Assembly: GCA_000182565.2 (NCBI GenBank)
Contig: KQ257455.1
Origin: Spizellomyces punctatus DAOM BR117
Lineage: Eukaryota
Reading direction: 5' to 3' (one strand)
DNA: 64,000 nt
The position numbers were made by a program, and so were the translations under genes. Shown here in pieces: positions 13,964-47,286 of the stretch; the stretch's first letter is position 1, and each line of letters starts with the position of its first letter. Below the pieces are notes generated by a model. The model saw only the letters and a program-made list of their open reading frames with translations. It ran no database searches and was not told where the DNA came from.

Positions 13964-16019
13964 TTACATAACAAGACACTTGTCTTTCTTCTTGTCTCCC
14001 TTTGCGCTCCCGCTGCTCCTGCGCGAGGTATCACCTTGCCCTGCCCTCCCATGACTATGACTCGCATATTCCGCCTCTTGCTGTCTTCGCACATATGCAT
14101 CATGTCTGACGTTCTCCTCCTCCTGGAGTGAGAGTGCTAGCGCCAAGTCCGATGACGCTTGAGTGGCCTCGCGTCCTTGACCTCCGACATCCACGTAGTC
14201 CTCCAGGCCGATCATGCTAGGCTGTTGTCCTCCTGAAAGGTTTGCACTCGGGATATGCTCTGATTCGCCAGACGTTTCGAATCGGTTAAAGCAACCATCC
14301 ACAAATGACGAGTCTCCTTCCACGTTATCCATTGTCTCCCACACGACAGCTTCGGCTCCTACGAATCCTTGGTCGGTAACAAGTGTATACAATGCAATTG
14401 TACCGTCCTTTCCGACCCGCTTGAACAAAGTGCAAAAATGATTGTTGCGGAATAATACCGCCAGCGAATTAGGTTCCAAAGTTTCACATAGAGTTTGTAG
14501 TCCATGGTAGGTCAGCTGTGACGCGGTTGCATCTAAAAACCCTTTGCATACAAGGCCCTCATGAATGAGTTGGTCGCGCTTCCGAGATGCCTCTTCATAT
14601 TCTTCTTCGGTCACCATTTTCTCTTTGCCTTTTGCTTGATGTGCCGCTGCAATCTCACCCTCGATAACCTTTTCCACAACTTGATTGTAACTTCCGCATT
14701 CAGAAACTACCACACGATACGTCTCCTCATCTTGGGGATCTACGGTCCAGCCATGACATAATATAATTTTGAAGAGATCAAACACCAGGAGACTGGAGGT
14801 TACTTCGAAGGAGAAGGGTGAATCGAAGCGTACATTGACATCCAATCCTGTTTGTAATGTCTGCATGTATAATGGATCAGTATGTGCACAGTACAAAGTG
14901 AAATGTGTATTTGAAGAAAGAGTTGATACCCACTGGTATGATCTCAAGGACATCTGTGAAATTCTTTGAAAAGTCTGCGGATGTATGACGGACGGATGAA
15001 AACGATGGTGATGTAGGGGATGATGCATTGGGACTACTCAGGGGTAGCCGGGTTGTCAGCCAGTCTCCTATTAGCTCAACAATATATTCATAATCCACTT
15101 CATCTCTTTCATATCTGATTTCGATATCTCCCCTCAACAGCAGCACATTGCAGAGTGCGAGGAGCGGACAAGGTCCATTGCGATTTTGCGTGATAATCTT
15201 GAGTCTTCGTGGGGTATCCGTCCTTGGATCCAAGTACGTGATCGGTTTAAGTCTGTAAGATTTATCAGCCGATTGCTGTGCGGGAAGATCGGACTGCGGG
15301 GGAGGGTGCGGCGAAGGTGACGGAAGGGATGAGCGACGAGGACCAACAGGCGGACGCTGAGGCTCATGTTGTTCTTGGGACGTCCCATCTGCTACAGTTG
15401 GAGCGTTTCCCGTGTTCTCTGCTGTATTTTCAATGGATTGACTTGTTGCTGTGTGTGAACGTGTCTCAACCTCTTTCGTAGAGTCGGTTATTTCTGGATG
15501 GTGTGATGTGGTTGGGGTGGAAGCTAGCAGCTCAGTTGGCAAAGACTGCGATTGTGACGGTACAGATTCCAACTTTGAGACATTCAATAGGGTAGCTTCA
15601 TGCAGAGAGGACACGCCCGGTTCCTCTTGTGATAGCGACTCTTGTGCTCTTTCTGCTGGTGCTTGGCGCTCCTCAAGGAGACCCACATGCTTCTCCGGCA
15701 CGATAGAGTCGTTCGCGTTCGCAGCCTGTGTGGTATTTGCCGTAGGCTCTACGGGAGGCGCTTGTACATCCTTGTCGTTTATAGCAGCAACGTCAGATGG
15801 TGGAGAGCTGACTGTGCGTTCAATTTCGCCTGCCGCGGTTGAAGAGAGGTTGATATCCTGGGGTTGTTCATGTTCGACGGTTGTGTCGCTCGCTTTGGCA
15901 TCGCTACCAGCCCGCGAGGATGGTGACTTTTGCTCTGGGCCGTCATGTATCTCGTATGAATATGGGTCGTCGTCGTCTGCTGCTGCTGTGAGCTGCTGCT
16001 GCTGCTGCTGCTCTGACAT
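13964..16019 (-). CDS. MINDY1/2-family (FAM63/DUF544) K48 deubiquitinase
   Basis: Catalytic IITQNRNGPCPLLALCN and LFRNNHF motifs, MIU-like SDLALALSLQEEE, and C-terminal CaaX KKKDKCLVM. One intron at about 14856-14931. Confidence 0.9.
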
Positions 16020-16136
16020 TGTTCAACCCAAAAGCCCAAACTCCTTCAGCCCTCGTCGTGCACACAAAAGACTGTTTATCAAGAAAGCACGCGCTCTGAA
16101 CGCTGGTTACGTGTTTAACGCCTGCTATGCCAACTA

Positions 16137-16140
16137 CATA
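16137..16140 (+). other. CATA target-adjacent motif (TAM); includes the left TA target-site duplication (16139-16140)
   Basis: caactaCATA|gtgcgg at the left junction. CATA is the TAM reported for S. punctatus Fanzor1. Confidence 0.85.
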
Positions 16141-16168
16141 GTGCGGAGCCGATGGGTATTGGCACTAG
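16141..16168 (+). repeat. Left terminal inverted repeat
   Basis: gtgcggagccgatgggtattggcactag is the exact reverse complement of 18252-18279 (30 bp if the TA is included). Confidence 0.97.
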
Positions 16169-16243
16169 TACAGTGATTCCAACCAATTGAATCATAATTT
16201 TACTCGATTTAGACTCATGAACTATGGTTTGATCCAAAAATCC

Positions 16244-16250
16244 TATATAA
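16244..16250 (+). promoter_or_regulatory. Putative TATA box of the Fanzor gene
   Basis: TATATAA lies 57 bp upstream of ATG 16301, inside the element and downstream of the alternative in-frame ATG at 16217. Confidence 0.45.
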
Positions 16251-16300
16251 GTCATCGTGCCCATTTTCCCAGGCTTTCATCTTTTTCCACAGATATCATC

Positions 16301-18184
16301 ATGCCATCAAAGAAAAAGCAAAAACTCGAAAAACTCGACAAACCTACTTGCTTACATACCTGCAACAAGACTCCCTTTGCAAAAGCTTTCCTGCCAAACG
16401 AGATCTACCGCCAACGGCTTCTAGATTACATCGCCATCATCCATCAACTTGCTGACCACGCTTCCCACGCTCTCAAATTCTACATCCTATCTGCACCATC
16501 CTTCACCGTGAACGAGGAGACCATCGAAGCGATTCTCTATCTTCTCAACAAAGGAGAGGCATGGCAACCAAAAACTGATGCAAAGAAGGCGCTACGCAGA
16601 TGCTTGTTGCCATACATTCAACGGTACTGCCACATCATCGGCTTCGTTCATCCAAATCTACAAAAAGAGCAGCAATCAGTCAATTACCTGACAGTGAGTA
16701 TGATGACGAACCTGAAAGTCAACGTTCAAGAGCATCTCATGCAGATGCTCCTTTGGTATATCAATCTGCAGCTTGACGTGAAGGGACAGAAGCAGCGACT
16801 GCCACTGAAAAGCGATGCGCGGAAAGCTTTCTTTACTCGGCTACGCTACTTGAAGTCGGTTTTCCTTTTCGAAACAATGCCAGAATCGCTGGATGACCTG
16901 AGCATTCTTGAAAACGAGATTTTAGAAGAGATCTGGACACTTAACCTGCCATTTCCTGATCAAGACAAGCCGCTTGCCTACCTCATTGCCATCGACGCGA
17001 TGTCCTTCTTTCCTGCATACTGCCGACTGTCAAAGTTGTTCGAGCAGCAAGGCTTTCGACAGTTCAGCGCGATACCTCTGCGCCGCTCTCTCATCCAAAG
17101 CCATGTGCGGATTGACACCGTCATCCTCTACTCTCATGTTCTTTGCATCACGCGACGAGAAGCAGAAGCCGTAGAGAAGGTCGATTTATGGTTGCGCGTC
17201 TGTAATCTACGTACCAAAGCTTTTCGGTCTCGCTGTGGTATGCATTTTGAAGGCTCGATCACGACGGACGGTACCTCGGTGTCAGTTTACTTGAAACATC
17301 CTGAAGCTGACAAGTATGGAAAACGCAGCGGAGGGAAAAAGTCAGCAAACACGATGGAGGCAGAGGTTAAAGCGCTTTATGTGGAAAACAACTTATCTGC
17401 TTGTCAAGAGAACTTTGTTGTTATCGACCCAAACAAGCGCGATCTTCTCTACTGCCAAGACAGCATTGGTACGACGTTCCGTTACACCGCCAACCAGCGA
17501 GCCGTGGAGACAGGTAGCCGGCGATTTGCAAAGAGACGAGAAGCAATGAAGAAAGAAGCTGGAGTTGACCTCATAGAATCACGTATCCCAAGCCACAAGA
17601 TGATGAACGTCATGGACTTTACTCGCTACCTTCTCGTTCGTCGCGCAGATTCGGATCGTCGCAAGGAATTCTACTCCCACCCTGCCCACACACGGTGGAA
17701 GTGGCATGCATTTATAAACCGTCAGAAGAGTGAATCGAACCTCATATCCAACATGCACAACAAGTTTGGGAGGAACTTTACCATTGTGATGGGTGATTGG
17801 AGCGACGCCGGTCGAACTACGAGATTTCAGACCTCATCAAAGACAAAAGGCTGGCGCACCCTCTTTAAGCGCAACCGCATTGATTGTTTCCTTCTCGACG
17901 AGTACAAGACCTCATCTGTCTGCCCTCACTGTTCCTCTGACGTTGAAAAAGGCTTCAAAACACGACCTCATTCAAGACCTTATCGACGACGAGAAGGCAA
18001 GATTGAAAAAGTCCACGGATTGCTGGGTTGTACCAACCCTAACTGTCAGCAAGACTGGACGATGCGCTACTGGAATCGAGATACGCTGTCAACCTGCAAC
18101 ATGCTGATGATCGTGCAATCAATGTTGGATGGGCACTGTAGACCAGAGGTGTTCAGCAGGAGGAGTGTTCCAGCCGTAGCATAG
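16301..18184 (+). CDS. Fz1: Fanzor1 RNA-guided DNA endonuclease (TnpB/Cas12-related RuvC), 627 aa
   Basis: NLS-like PSKKKQK. RuvC-I VVIDPNKRD (D376), RuvC-II LLDEYKTS (E534), zinc finger CPHC..CTNPNC (C541/544/577/582) and RuvC-III WNRD (D594). Closely resembles SpuFz1 as I recall it. Intronless. Confidence 0.95.
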   Translation: MPSKKKQKLEKLDKPTCLHTCNKTPFAKAFLPNEIYRQRLLDYIAIIHQLADHASHALKFYILSAPSFTVNEETIEAILYLLNKGEAWQPKTDAKKALRRCLLPYIQRYCHIIGFVHPNLQKEQQSVNYLTVSMMTNLKVNVQEHLMQMLLWYINLQLDVKGQKQRLPLKSDARKAFFTRLRYLKSVFLFETMPESLDDLSILENEILEEIWTLNLPFPDQDKPLAYLIAIDAMSFFPAYCRLSKLFEQQGFRQFSAIPLRRSLIQSHVRIDTVILYSHVLCITRREAEAVEKVDLWLRVCNLRTKAFRSRCGMHFEGSITTDGTSVSVYLKHPEADKYGKRSGGKKSANTMEAEVKALYVENNLSACQENFVVIDPNKRDLLYCQDSIGTTFRYTANQRAVETGSRRFAKRREAMKKEAGVDLIESRIPSHKMMNVMDFTRYLLVRRADSDRRKEFYSHPAHTRWKWHAFINRQKSESNLISNMHNKFGRNFTIVMGDWSDAGRTTRFQTSSKTKGWRTLFKRNRIDCFLLDEYKTSSVCPHCSSDVEKGFKTRPHSRPYRRREGKIEKVHGLLGCTNPNCQQDWTMRYWNRDTLSTCNMLMIVQSMLDGHCRPEVFSRRSVPAVA

Positions 18185-18206
18185 AGCGAGAGATTGGTTA
18201 GATTAG

Positions 18207-18296
18207 CCTTTCCGAGCCGGTTGTCGCGCGGTTCAATCCCTGGTGCGGGTGCTAGTGCCAATACCCATCGGCTCCGCACTAACCAACTCCCATTTA
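18207..18296 (+). ncRNA. Putative omegaRNA: about 75-nt scaffold (18207-18281) plus about 15-nt guide from the host flank (18282-18296, accaactcccattta)
   Basis: Pairings visible: gagccggt 18214-21 with atcggctc 18267-74, cgcgc 18225-29 with gtgcg 18243-47, and gggtg 18247-51 with taccc 18262-66. The position between stop codon and right end matches TnpB/Fanzor reRNA architecture. Ends are inferred. Confidence 0.85.
18252..18279 (-). repeat. Right terminal inverted repeat (doubles as the 3' part of the omegaRNA scaffold)
   Basis: ctagtgccaatacccatcggctccgcac, followed by TA. Confidence 0.97.
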
Positions 18297-18461
18297 GCGA
18301 TAGCACCCTTCTTGAAACTCGGAATCCTGCTCGTTTCCTTCCTTTCTGGACAACGACCTGCGCCTTATTTGGACCAAAAAGCCTCCATACCAGATAACAA
18401 AAACGCAAAGTCCTTTGCTGAGCAGCCTATCCAAGAAGACCTGTAGATCAGACGCGACCAC

Positions 18462-20482
18462 ATGTCTTCTGGAAGCGAATCGTCGCCGTCAGAGAGCTCC
18501 TACTTTAGCCGCAAGAATGGAGTGGAGAACATATCCTTGACCCGGTTACCCAATCTCGCCTCTCCCAGGTTAATGACACCAACTTCGCAACTCGCAGAGA
18601 CTGCTGTGGGAGTGAGGGAAGCTGCAAAATGCATAGGTATTTGACATTTTGCTGACAGAGCCTTGGCGCATTTTCACAAAGACTTCACCATGAACTTTTC
18701 TTATTGGGGTCAACGCTCCCCCAACCTTGCCAGAGATAGTAGTAATCCCTTTTTTCTTTTAGGACGTGCCTTGGTGAAGTTGGAGCGCCCGCAAACTGTC
18801 ATGCTCGTGGCAAAAGCACTAGACGCAAAGATTATCAAATTCACCCGGCAATTAGCCTGCCATCTTATCGACACCCCCCGAACGTCTTGCGGACACAAGG
18901 GGTTAACTGTGTAGGTTGCAAGAGTGTAATTCCAAACCCGGCGATTGATTGGGCACATTGTTAACAAGCGCTAATTTCCCTTTAGATATATTGATTCCAA
19001 ATTTCGCACTCATCCTGCATTCAGCTTTGACCGGCTACTGGCTTCTCATCCCCACTATGCCGATCAGCTCAAGTTTTGGACGCCAGAACTGTGCGCAACG
19101 CAAACAGATCACATCGATTTCATCATCACTCTTGGCGGAGACGGAACGGTAATCTACACGTCGTGGCTCTTCCAGCACGCGCAAGTACCTCCAGTTGTTC
19201 CCTTCGATCTGGGTTCGCTTGGATTTTTGACCAACTTCAACATCACAAACATACGCGATGTTCTGCAGCGAGTGATTGGGTGCCGTGGTGCTGGAGTTAG
19301 GGTGAACTTGCGTATGAGACTTAGCTGCACGGTTTGGAGGTCGGACTTTAAAAGCAAAAATAAAGAGGTCTTAGAAGGTCGGACGGCTGAGAAAAAGAGA
19401 CGGGAAGATTTGTGTAGTATCAAGGGCGACGAGGAAGAAGCAGATGGCCGTTCAAAGATAGGGAGACGAGCTTCGAGTCAGCAACCTGATCCTGGCACTA
19501 CACTGAATGGGTTACCCGCCTATTCTTCCGACGACCTAATATCTACCACTCCCGCACCACGACTGAACGATGAACATGCGACTTCCGATATTGGCGACTT
19601 ATTAGATGAGATCTCTTTGCAATTGATGTCAAAAGTTGATCCAGACGAGCTCGACCCAGGACCTGGGACACCGAAACGGATCCGATCAATGCAGTCACTG
19701 GGTACAACGCTCCCCAGTGCTGACAATGCAAAACCTGTGCCAACAGAAACCTTCCAAATATTGAATGACTTGGTAGTCGATCGTGGACCGAGCGCATATA
19801 TGAGCCAATTGGAGTTGTTTGTGGACGATAGACATTTGACTACTGTTCAGGCTGACGGTCTTGTTCTCTCTACACCAACGGGGTCAACAGCTTACTCGGT
19901 ATGTAAAATGCAAACTGTCGGTCATGTCGACAGAATACAAATTGATATTATCAAATATGCTCTGAACAGCTGTCAGCTGGAGGCTCCTTAGTACATCCCG
20001 AAGTCCCTTCCGTCCTCGTTACCCCTATCTGTCCACATACACTTTCCTTCAGACCAATGCTCCTTCCCGATTCCACTGATATACGAATTCAAGTCCCACG
20101 AGATTCGCGGACGTCTGCGTGGGCTAGTTTCGATGGTCGACACAGAATAGAGTTGAAGAAGGGCGACTATGTTACTGTGACCATGTCGCGATGGCCCATG
20201 CCTACTGTTTGCGAGGTAGATCAGGGTACAGATTGGTCTGAAAGTTTGAGAAGATGTTTGCATTGGAACGAGCGCACACGCCAGAAACCGTTTGTTGGTG
20301 AACAAGACAAGAGGTTGGAGAAAGTTGGGGACTCGTTGACGCAACTAGACAGTGAGCTTTCATCAAGCAGTGAAACGAGAACGTCGTTCAACGGCGACGT
20401 ATCTGATGGTTCTTATAGGTGTGAGGACATATGTGAACAAGATGAACAGCGTGAAGATGACGACCCCGGGTTAAGGATGTGA
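18462..20482 (+). CDS. NAD(H) kinase (UTR1/YEF1-like), multi-exon
   Basis: LGGDGT, GSLGFLT, ILNDLVVDRG, QADGLVLSTPTGSTAYS, TPICPHTLSFRP and SFDGR. Confidence 0.92.
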
Positions 20483-44565: not shown

Positions 44566-44883
44566 CACAACCTCACCAGTGATGCGCTTAGAACATTTTG
44601 GATGATCTTGAAAACCATGCTGGAGAGTTTAGGAGGAAAGGCTACGGCATTTAAGCGACGAGTTCGTAGCACTCGTCTTCCCAGTCTGTGCGAGTTCAGG
44701 GCACTAGTACAGTGAATTACATTGTTCAAGGGCGAAATTTGGTTCGTATGCGCAAACCAAATCAACAATGAGAATCAATGGTGTAGGGAACAACACATGC
44801 GCAGGTCCGACATCTGATACATATTTTACTAGAAGTAAAGCTTTTGGTCATGACAAGGACCAGAACAATGTTTTGGCTCTCCC

Positions 44884-47186: not shown

Positions 47187-47286
47187 NNNNNNNNNNNNNN
47201 NNNNNNNNNNNNNNNNNNNNNNNNNNNNNNNNNNNNNNNNNNNNNNNNNNNNNNNNNNNNNNNNNNNNNNNNNNNNNNNNNNNNNN
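47187..47286. other. Assembly gap (100 N), preceded by low-quality homopolymer-rich read end from about 46915
   Basis: N run plus inflated C/G/A/T homopolymers. Confidence 0.95.

What the first reader, a model, noticed from the sequence alone, without database searches (positions are those of the whole stretch)
16131..18300. Reconstructed empty site is a perfect TAM+target while the occupied allele is immune (homing logic)
Removing the element and one TA gives caactaCATA|accaactcccatttagcga, which is the CATA TAM directly followed by the guide sequence. In the occupied allele CATA is followed by TIR, and the protospacer is preceded by ACTA, so self-cleavage is avoided. Inference: the nuclease cuts precisely excised or empty alleles to drive restoration or homing, and the TA TSD is nested in the TAM.
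Basis: partly seen in the sequence, partly recalled or inferred. Interest (0 to 1): 0.82.

Follow-up and report, generated by a model that had tools for sequence, protein, structure and literature searches.

The report
Fanzor transposon targets own empty site
This is an ordinary, intact copy of the already described Spu-1 jumping gene of a soil chytrid fungus; its RNA-guided Fanzor nuclease is set up to recognise the version of its own insertion site that lacks the element, an arrangement that is already in print and whose role in the living cell is still untested.

Summary
Window 16139-18281 is a 2143-bp element with perfect 28-nt inverted ends and TA on each side. It has CATA at the left junction and ACTA before the right flank. 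Its single 627-aa ORF is a paralogue of SpuFz1, the solved Fanzor1 of Spizellomyces punctatus, whose measured TAM is CATA. Removing the element and one TA gives CATA followed directly by the sequence that the omega-RNA guide would carry.

The logic is already published:
- SPu-1 with putative TA duplications (2013).
- A conserved CA upstream of the left repeat in Fanzor and ghost loci (2023).
- "The 5' TSD is recognized as a part of the TAM" and the 3' TSD lies in the RNA scaffold.

Homing has been shown only for bacterial TnpB/IscB, not for any Fanzor.

At one locus, CA before a TA has a 7% chance. I found no empty allele and could not tabulate other copies: no genome is held and the metagenome scans were empty.

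One small new detail: this copy has Lys in place of Arg96, a TAM-contacting residue.

Verdict: real, correctly read, already known.

The parts
16139..18281 (+). Whole Spu-1-type element including the TA on each side (2143 bp)
   Evidence: Size and ends match the published SPu-1 description (about 2,100 bp, 33-bp TIRs, putative TA TSDs).
16137..16140 (+). CATA at the left junction. It equals the measured SpuFz1 TAM. Its last two bases are the left TA.
   Evidence: sequence. TAM value from Saito 2023. Conserved CA upstream of the left repeat.
16141..16168 (+). Left terminal inverted repeat, 28 nt, perfect
   Evidence: (0 mismatches)
16301..18184 (+). Fanzor1 gene: 627 aa, uninterrupted, stop TAG at 18182-18184
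   Evidence: ORF. (PDB 8gkh SpuFz1, E = 0, 1182.7 bits, query residues 2-627). (best hit 88% identical, S. punctatus). (D383, E541 and D606 equivalents present; Arg96 replaced by Lys).
18207..18281 (+). Predicted omega-RNA scaffold: the 75 nt ending at the element's right end, including the right TA
   Evidence: Position taken from the published 75-nt scaffold. Fold: stem-loop 18214-18234, and stem-loop 18241-18281 with an 8-nt loop in which the terminal UA is paired. RNA reads pile up here, but mostly from other loci. No Rfam family matched.
18252..18279 (-). Right terminal inverted repeat, 28 nt, perfect
18280..18281 (+). Right TA: the putative 3' copy of the target-site duplication. It is the last two bases of the RNA scaffold. 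With the two bases before it, it reads ACTA.
   Evidence: the 3' TSD is part of the scaffold in Fanzor1.
18282..18296 (+). Guide template and protospacer: the 14-15 nt of unique right flank
   Evidence: unique in the window. Guide length. Unpaired in the fold.

Best explanation
Shown by sequence: window 16139-18281 is a full-length, apparently intact copy of the Spu-1 transposon family of Spizellomyces punctatus or a very close relative. It carries one gene, a paralogue of the RNA-guided nuclease SpuFz1 (Fanzor1). It has perfect inverted ends, a TA on each side and CATA at the left junction.

Inferred from the characterised paralogue: the last 75 nt of the element, right TA included, are transcribed as the omega-RNA scaffold. 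Transcription runs 14-15 nt into the right flank, which gives the guide ACCAACUCCCAUUU(A).

The only DNA that pairs this guide with a CATA is the site without the element, CATA|ACCAAC... In the filled site the protospacer follows ACTA, the fixed end of the right repeat. Every copy is therefore blind to itself by construction. The single target TA serves both as the insertion dinucleotide and as the last two bases of the TAM.

Proposed function, not shown for any Fanzor: the ribonucleoprotein cuts an empty or precisely excised allele 16-21 nt into the right flank. Repair from a filled sister or homologue then puts the element back (restorative homing).

I give about 0.95 to the anatomy and about 0.5 to the in-cell function. 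The stated confidence is for the whole.
For: - Ends, TA, CATA and ACTA are as stated.
- The ORF matches the solved SpuFz1 over residues 2-627.
- 17 of the 46 relatives found are named S. punctatus DAOM BR117 proteins.
- 9 of 10 published TAM-reading and catalytic residues are kept.
- Published for the paralogue: TAM CATA, and cuts after bases 16-17 (non-target strand) and 20-21 (target strand). A 75-nt scaffold plus a 14-15-nt variable extension beyond the right repeat, and a CA conserved upstream of the left repeat in Fanzor and ghost loci.
- The fold places the terminal UA inside stem-loop 2, gives that stem an 8-nt loop as published for the canonical RNA, and leaves the guide unpaired.
- In print: the 5' TSD is read as part of the TAM and the 3' TSD is part of the scaffold.
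- 3 of the 4 other-copy left-junction contigs shown share CATA.
Against: - No empty allele or element-skipping joint was found in 4 laid runs. None of the 7 joints listed spans the element. One DNA run had flank depth of about 75-160, but its reads are only 38 nt, so sensitivity is poor.
- CA before TA is a 7% event at a single locus.
- The TA duplication is only 'putative'.
- No transposase lies inside Spu-1 or among the 14 ORFs of 300 aa or more in the window.
- Cut-and-paste DDE excision already leaves a break and typically leaves a footprint (Tc1/mariner knowledge, recalled). That would make a precisely restored CATA+target site rare.
- This copy has Lys at position 96. In SpuFz1, Arg96 contacts the C of the TAM, so its own TAM reading is untested.
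- One other copy, abundant in RNA reads, lacks CATA.
- The fold z-score is modest: -1.7, with 8 of 200 shuffles as good.
Confidence: 0.6

Rival explanations
1. The arrangement is real, but it is a by-product. The unknown trans-acting transposase prefers CATA-like TA sites, and the Fanzor TAM merely tracks that preference. In the cell the nuclease does not restore or home this element. Its role is something else or nothing, and this Lys96 copy may be weak.
For: - The biological role of Fanzors is stated as unknown.
- Homing is shown only for bacterial TnpB and IscB.
- DDE excision leaves a double-strand break by itself, so a nuclease adds little.
- No excision joint was seen.
- This copy has the Arg96Lys change, and mutating the conserved REC-loop arginine in GtFz1 abolishes cleavage. 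That the two arginines are equivalent is my inference.
Against: - The ends are perfectly symmetric, yet at this locus the right flank is TA-AC, not the mirror TA-TG. A symmetric transposase preference alone does not explain a left-only CA.
- SpuFz1 paralogues keep their catalytic residues.
- Gene-less ghost copies keep both the CA and a working omega-RNA. That fits a selected nuclease function.
Confidence: 0.3
2. Both TAs belong to the element, giving 30-nt repeats as drawn by Saito 2023, and no duplication is made. The true empty site would then read ...CA|ACCAAC..., with TACA rather than CATA before the guide match, and would not be a target.
For: - Saito 2023 describes 30-nt repeats, which here must include the TA.
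- TA is palindromic, so sequence alone cannot separate a repeat extension from a duplication.
- No empty site has been seen.
Against: - The measured TAM is exactly CA plus TA.
- The guide was experimentally placed directly after the scaffold that ends in UA.
- Under this rival, the match between the conserved flanking CA and the TAM would be a coincidence across Fanzor and ghost loci.
- Bao and Jurka and the later literature read the TA as a duplication.
Confidence: 0.05
3. At this particular copy the CATA is a chance flank and carries no information.
For: CA precedes 7% of oriented TA sites in the window. Only one copy lies in the window.
Against: CA conservation is published across the family. 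3 of the 4 other-copy junction contigs shown share it.
Confidence: 0.05

Closest known systems
SPu-1 / Spu-1 elements encoding SpuFz1 (Fanzor1) of Spizellomyces punctatus (Bao & Jurka 2013, PMC3627910; Saito et al. 2023, PMC10432273; structures 8gkh, 9ceu-9cez)
   Same: - Length of about 2.1 kb with a single Fanzor ORF.
- 28-33-nt inverted ends, TA on both sides and CA upstream of the left end.
[quoted passage not shown]
- The protein is 83% identical to the 638-aa paralogue that carries all ten residues named for SpuFz1 (P0002), and 88% identical to the nearest paralogue.
   Different: - It is a different paralogue. Its exact protein is not in the protein collection searched; the best hit is 88%.
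- It has Lys instead of Arg96. Only 2 other rows share this among the 31 that cover the column.
- Otherwise nothing departs from the family description.
IS200/IS605 and IS607 TnpB-omegaRNA 'restorative homing' (Meers et al. 2023, seen only as a search listing and a cited reference; summarised in the 2026 review PMC13565253)
   Same: - The TAM sits at the left junction.
- The guide is templated by the right flank.
- The empty donor site is the only TAM+target, and the filled site is immune.
   Different: - Those elements have no inverted ends and make no duplication.
- They excise scarlessly by HUH or serine recombinases that they encode.
- Here the ends are inverted repeats, the TA is probably duplicated and is absorbed half into the TAM and half into the scaffold, no transposase is known, and homing has not been shown.
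Fanzor1 in TIR/TSD elements such as the SfAV ascovirus element and Mariner-type PGv-1 / PUl-4 (Yoon et al. 2023, PMC10711439; Bao & Jurka 2013)
   Same: The TIR and TSD are folded into the guide-RNA scaffold, and the guide starts after the TSD. TA flanks resemble those of Mariner elements.
   Different: Some of those elements carry a Mariner transposase, or share ends with a known Mariner. For Spu-1 no partner transposase has been identified.

Membership tests
Spu-1 / SpuFz1 Fanzor1 element | Encodes a SpuFz1-type protein with the RuvC Asp-Glu-Asp triad | tested here: met
   8gkh, E = 0; equivalents of D383, E541 and D606 are all present.
Spu-1 / SpuFz1 Fanzor1 element | About 2.1 kb, one ORF, 30-33-nt terminal inverted repeats | tested here: met
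   2143 bp, a 28-nt perfect core, and 33-nt arms at 97%.
Spu-1 / SpuFz1 Fanzor1 element | Conserved CA directly upstream of the left repeat, giving CATA | tested here: met
   16137-16140. The family feature is stated.
Spu-1 / SpuFz1 Fanzor1 element | A 75-nt omega-RNA scaffold across the right repeat, plus a 14-15-nt guide from the flank | tested here: inconclusive
   The fold agrees with the published description: an 8-nt loop in stem 2 and an unpaired guide (z = -1.7). RNA reads cover 18122-18349 and stop before 18350, but most come from other loci and no ends were resolved. No Rfam model matched.
Spu-1 / SpuFz1 Fanzor1 element | TAM-reading residues of SpuFz1 (R96, Q129, Q130, N133, R291, Y345) | tested here: inconclusive
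   5 of 6 are kept. R96 is Lys. The effect on TAM reading is unknown.
OMEGA-type restorative homing system | The empty site is TAM plus guide match, and the filled site lacks a TAM at the protospacer | tested here: met
   CATA|ACCAAC... against ACTA|ACCAAC...
OMEGA-type restorative homing system | The element excises and leaves a precise empty donor site | tested here: inconclusive
   None of the 7 joints listed in the 4 runs spans the element. Reads of 38-60 nt and assembled contigs give poor power.
OMEGA-type restorative homing system | Nuclease cleavage of the empty site followed by recombinational restoration | not testable with these tools
   This needs bench work. In the review passages read, it is listed as shown only for IS605 and IS607 systems.
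Tc1/mariner-type non-autonomous DNA transposon | A TA target-site duplication proven by an empty site | tested here: inconclusive
   TA is present on both sides. No empty site was available. It is called 'putative' in print.
Tc1/mariner-type non-autonomous DNA transposon | A partner DDE transposase with matching ends | tested here: not met
   There is none in the element, and none among the window's 14 ORFs of 300 aa or more. None was found by Saito 2023 inside Spu-1. The whole genome could not be searched.

The most novel reading that the evidence does not exclude
The ends are perfectly symmetric, so a transposase alone should treat the two flanks alike. Yet the conserved CA sits only on the left, and at this locus the right flank is TA-AC, not TA-TG. 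This asymmetry may be a survivorship signature. Only insertions that happened to create CATA on the nuclease's side are kept, through Fanzor-mediated restoration. If so, it would be the first natural-population evidence that a eukaryotic Fanzor maintains a cut-and-paste transposon. A second strand: the Lys96 sub-lineage to which this copy belongs may read the -4 base of the TAM differently.
Probability: 0.25. Interest if true: 0.5.

Novelty: already known. Interest (0 to 1): 0.15.

Why it matters
The arrangement explains how an RNA-guided nuclease can serve a selfish element without harming its own copy. It is also why SpuFz1 needs CATA when used as a genome editor. All of that is in print for this very family. 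What remains open, and matters, is whether any Fanzor performs homing in a eukaryote, above all for an element that probably excises by cut-and-paste and has no known transposase. This locus is a clean, intact and unique-flank test case for that experiment, but it adds no new principle.

Tried and rejected
- Whole-genome tabulation of flanks: impossible, because no genome is held for this window.
- Other copies or ghost copies inside the window: none. This was tested by BLAST with word size 7 and by a scan that allowed up to 11 of 30 mismatches to the repeat.
- Metagenome contigs: a 22-nt piece of the repeat gave 0 matches. The protein scan gave 95 pattern matches, 0 of them confirmed.
- Viral contigs: 0 matches.
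- Pfam (local copy): no family for the Fanzor ORF, although the protein collection lists PF26935.1 for all 46 relatives.
- Rfam: no match in 15500-19000 at E up to 1.
- Earlier notes of this scan: nothing for this genome or sequence. The 8 'Fanzor' notes shown of 1462 concern other genomes.
- Search for an empty allele or somatic excision in 4 runs: no joint across the element. One run, from a different coded organism, held only element-like pieces and no flanks, so it could not show an orthologous empty site.
- A longer duplication: CCAACT lies on both flanks, but not adjacent to the ends. A shared 6-mer within 14 nt occurs at 74 of 2760 TA sites, which is 2.7%. I rejected it as post hoc.
- Supplementary data of Saito 2023 (locus lists) and its Extended Data Fig. 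3a were not available.

Full report
**What is there.** Window 16139-18281 is a 2143-bp element. A perfect 28-nt terminal inverted repeat lies at 16141-16168 and, reverse-complemented, at 18252-18279 (2 matches, 0 mismatches, none in 100 shuffles). Including the TA on each side and three more bases, the arms are 33 nt at 97%. The left junction reads ...caacta-CA-TA|repeat. The right junction reads repeat|TA-accaactcccatttagcga. All coordinates and strings in the finding are correct.

**The gene.** The one long ORF (16301-18184, 627 aa) starts MPSKKKQK and is uninterrupted.
- It matches the solved Spizellomyces punctatus Fanzor1 (SpuFz1, PDB 8gkh and six more entries) with E = 0 and 1182.7 bits over residues 2-627.
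- Of 46 relatives found in the large protein collection, 17 are named S. punctatus DAOM BR117 proteins. The nearest is 88% identical, and none is identical.
- The 638-aa paralogue P0002 carries all ten residues named in the structure paper at the stated positions. Against it, this copy keeps Q129, Q130, N133, R291 and Y345 (TAM and unwinding) and D383, N385, E541 and D606 (catalysis).
- It has Lys for Arg96. That column is Arg in 25 of the 31 aligned rows that cover it, Lys in 3 (this copy, P0006 and P0015), Gly in 2 and Thr in 1. Seven of the 38 rows have a gap there.
- Arg96 contacts the C of CATA. A conserved REC-loop arginine is essential in GtFz1. That the two arginines are equivalent is my inference.

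**The RNA.** For this family, Saito et al. 2023 report a 75-nt scaffold spanning the right repeat plus a 14-15-nt variable extension into the flank (section 7 read in full).
- Here that is 18207-18281 plus 18282-18296.
- The predicted fold has a first stem-loop at 18214-18234 and a second at 18241-18281, with an 8-nt loop. That is the loop size the paper gives for the canonical RNA.
- The terminal UA is paired inside the second stem and the guide is unpaired. MFE is -28.3 kcal/mol, z = -1.7, and 8 of 200 shuffles fold as well.
- No Rfam family matches.
- In one RNA run, depth peaks at 18122-18235, continues in 18236-18349 and is near zero from 18350. Most of these reads come from other loci, and no ends were resolved.

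**The logic.** SpuFz1's measured TAM is 5'-CATA. It cuts after bases 16-17 of the non-target strand and 20-21 of the target strand.
- The guide begins directly after the scaffold's terminal UA, so the natural guide matches ACCAACTCCCATTT(A).
- That sequence follows CATA only if the element and one TA are removed (reconstruction printed).
- In the filled allele it follows ACTA, the invariant end of the right repeat. ACTA differs from CATA at -4 and -3, the two positions read base-specifically together with -2.
- The predicted cuts in an empty allele would fall at about 18297-18302. That is outside the 14-15-nt guide match, so small repair errors would leave the site cuttable. This last point is my inference, by analogy with Cas12a and TnpB.

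**Is it more than chance?** At one locus, no. CA precedes 385 of 5535 oriented TA sites elsewhere in the window, which is 7%. The weight comes from the family.
[quoted passage not shown] They say the gene-less ghost loci share it, and they draw "TAM regions" in the locus scheme. I saw the text and the legend only, not the figure or the supplementary lists.
- From laid contigs, 3 of the 4 other-copy left junctions shown match from TACATA onward.
- One copy, which is also abundant in RNA reads, does not have C at -4.
- 350 loose-end rows were not shown.

**Already in print.**
- Bao and Jurka 2013 described SPu-1: about 2,100 bp, 33-bp TIRs, "putative TA" duplications and 17 full-length copies (passages).
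- Yoon et al. 2023 showed that in Fanzor1 the TIR and TSD are part of the guide-RNA scaffold (passages).
- Jiang et al. 2023 note that the TAM agrees with the insertion site in some cases (passages).
- A 2026 review states that "the 5' TSD is recognized as a part of the TAM" and that the 3' TSD is in the scaffold. It sets out "transposon restorative homing".
- The same review lists cleavage of the empty site with restoration as shown for IS605 TnpB/IscB and IS607 TnpB, not for Fanzor. It notes that DDE excision already leaves a break (passages).
- A search for Fanzor with excision, homing and empty-site terms listed no paper that shows homing by a Fanzor.
- Nesting of the TA in the TAM, the empty-site target and self-immunity are therefore known ideas. 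The in-cell function remains open.

**What I could not do.**
- No genome is held.
- The window has no second copy or ghost.
- Two metagenome scans and one viral scan found nothing.
- Laying four public runs showed no joint across the element. Seven joints were listed, all inside the element or at 18633. The DNA run had flank depth of about 75-160 but 38-nt reads. One contig spans the filled right junction with no differences.
- This is weak evidence against frequent excision, and no evidence about other isolates.

**Context.**
- The element sits in a short divergent intergenic region. A MINDY deubiquitinase gene starts at 16019 on the minus strand. A plus-strand ORF starts at 18462, ahead of NAD-kinase exons.
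- None of the other 10 ORFs of 300 aa or more is a transposase.

**Verdict.** The whole is a re-derivation of published knowledge on a further paralogue. The two points I did not see stated in the passages I read are minor:
- The left-only CA beside perfectly symmetric ends argues against a purely transposase-driven preference.
- This copy belongs to a small Lys96 sub-lineage.

Noticed in passing
window 16586-16588 (codon for residue 96 of the Fanzor ORF): This copy has Lys where SpuFz1 has Arg96, the residue reported to contact the C of the CATA TAM. Only 2 other rows (P0006, P0015) share it among the 31 that cover the column. All three carry the local motif QPKTDAK or QPKTGAK instead of HPRKEAK.
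   Followed up: partly
window 16130-16135 and 18283-18288: The hexamer CCAACT lies on both flanks, but not adjacent to the element ends. A shared 6-mer within 14 nt occurs at 2.7% of TA sites in the window. It is probably chance.
   Followed up: yes
window 16138 (left junction), loose ends: Another copy of the element, seen in 1 contig and 85 RNA reads, joins the repeat to a flank that ends ...GTGAAAT. It therefore lacks C at TAM position -4, yet it is among the better-expressed junctions.
   Followed up: no
window 18199-18245, loose ends: Hundreds of RNA reads from other loci match only this 46-nt stretch (first stem-loop plus the start of the second) and diverge on both sides. At least three upstream contexts and one downstream context are seen. 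They may come from ghost-type guide RNAs with a different second stem.
   Followed up: no
window 16184-16525 versus 18122-18235, depth table: In the stranded RNA run, first mates lie mainly on the minus strand over the 5' part of the element and mainly on the plus strand over the guide-RNA region. The body of the ORF has depth under 6. The two ends seem to give separate short transcripts of opposite read orientation. The library's strand convention could not be calibrated, because too few reads fall on the neighbouring genes.
   Followed up: no
window 44700-44715: A 16-nt exact match to element positions 16161-16176 (inner end of the left repeat plus 8 nt), with no further similarity. BLAST E is 0.004 for the 122-nt query and 0.08 for the whole element. 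It is either a relic or chance.
   Followed up: partly
window 18281-18462: The element's guide-RNA end lies 180 nt upstream of a co-oriented ATG (ORF 18462-18644, ahead of NAD-kinase exons). Its left end lies 120 nt upstream of the divergent MINDY gene start at 16019. Without the element the intergenic region would be about 300 bp.
   Followed up: no
window 16301-18184: The exact protein of this intact ORF is absent from the 5.8-billion-protein collection; the best hit is 88%. The local Pfam copy gives no family, while the collection labels all 46 relatives PF26935.1.
   Followed up: no
window 47187-47286: A run of 100 N, which is an assembly gap.
   Followed up: no
run X11 (a different coded organism): This run holds contig pieces 85-99% like the Fanzor ORF but has nothing on the flanks. 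A relative therefore carries closely related elements at other sites.
   Followed up: no
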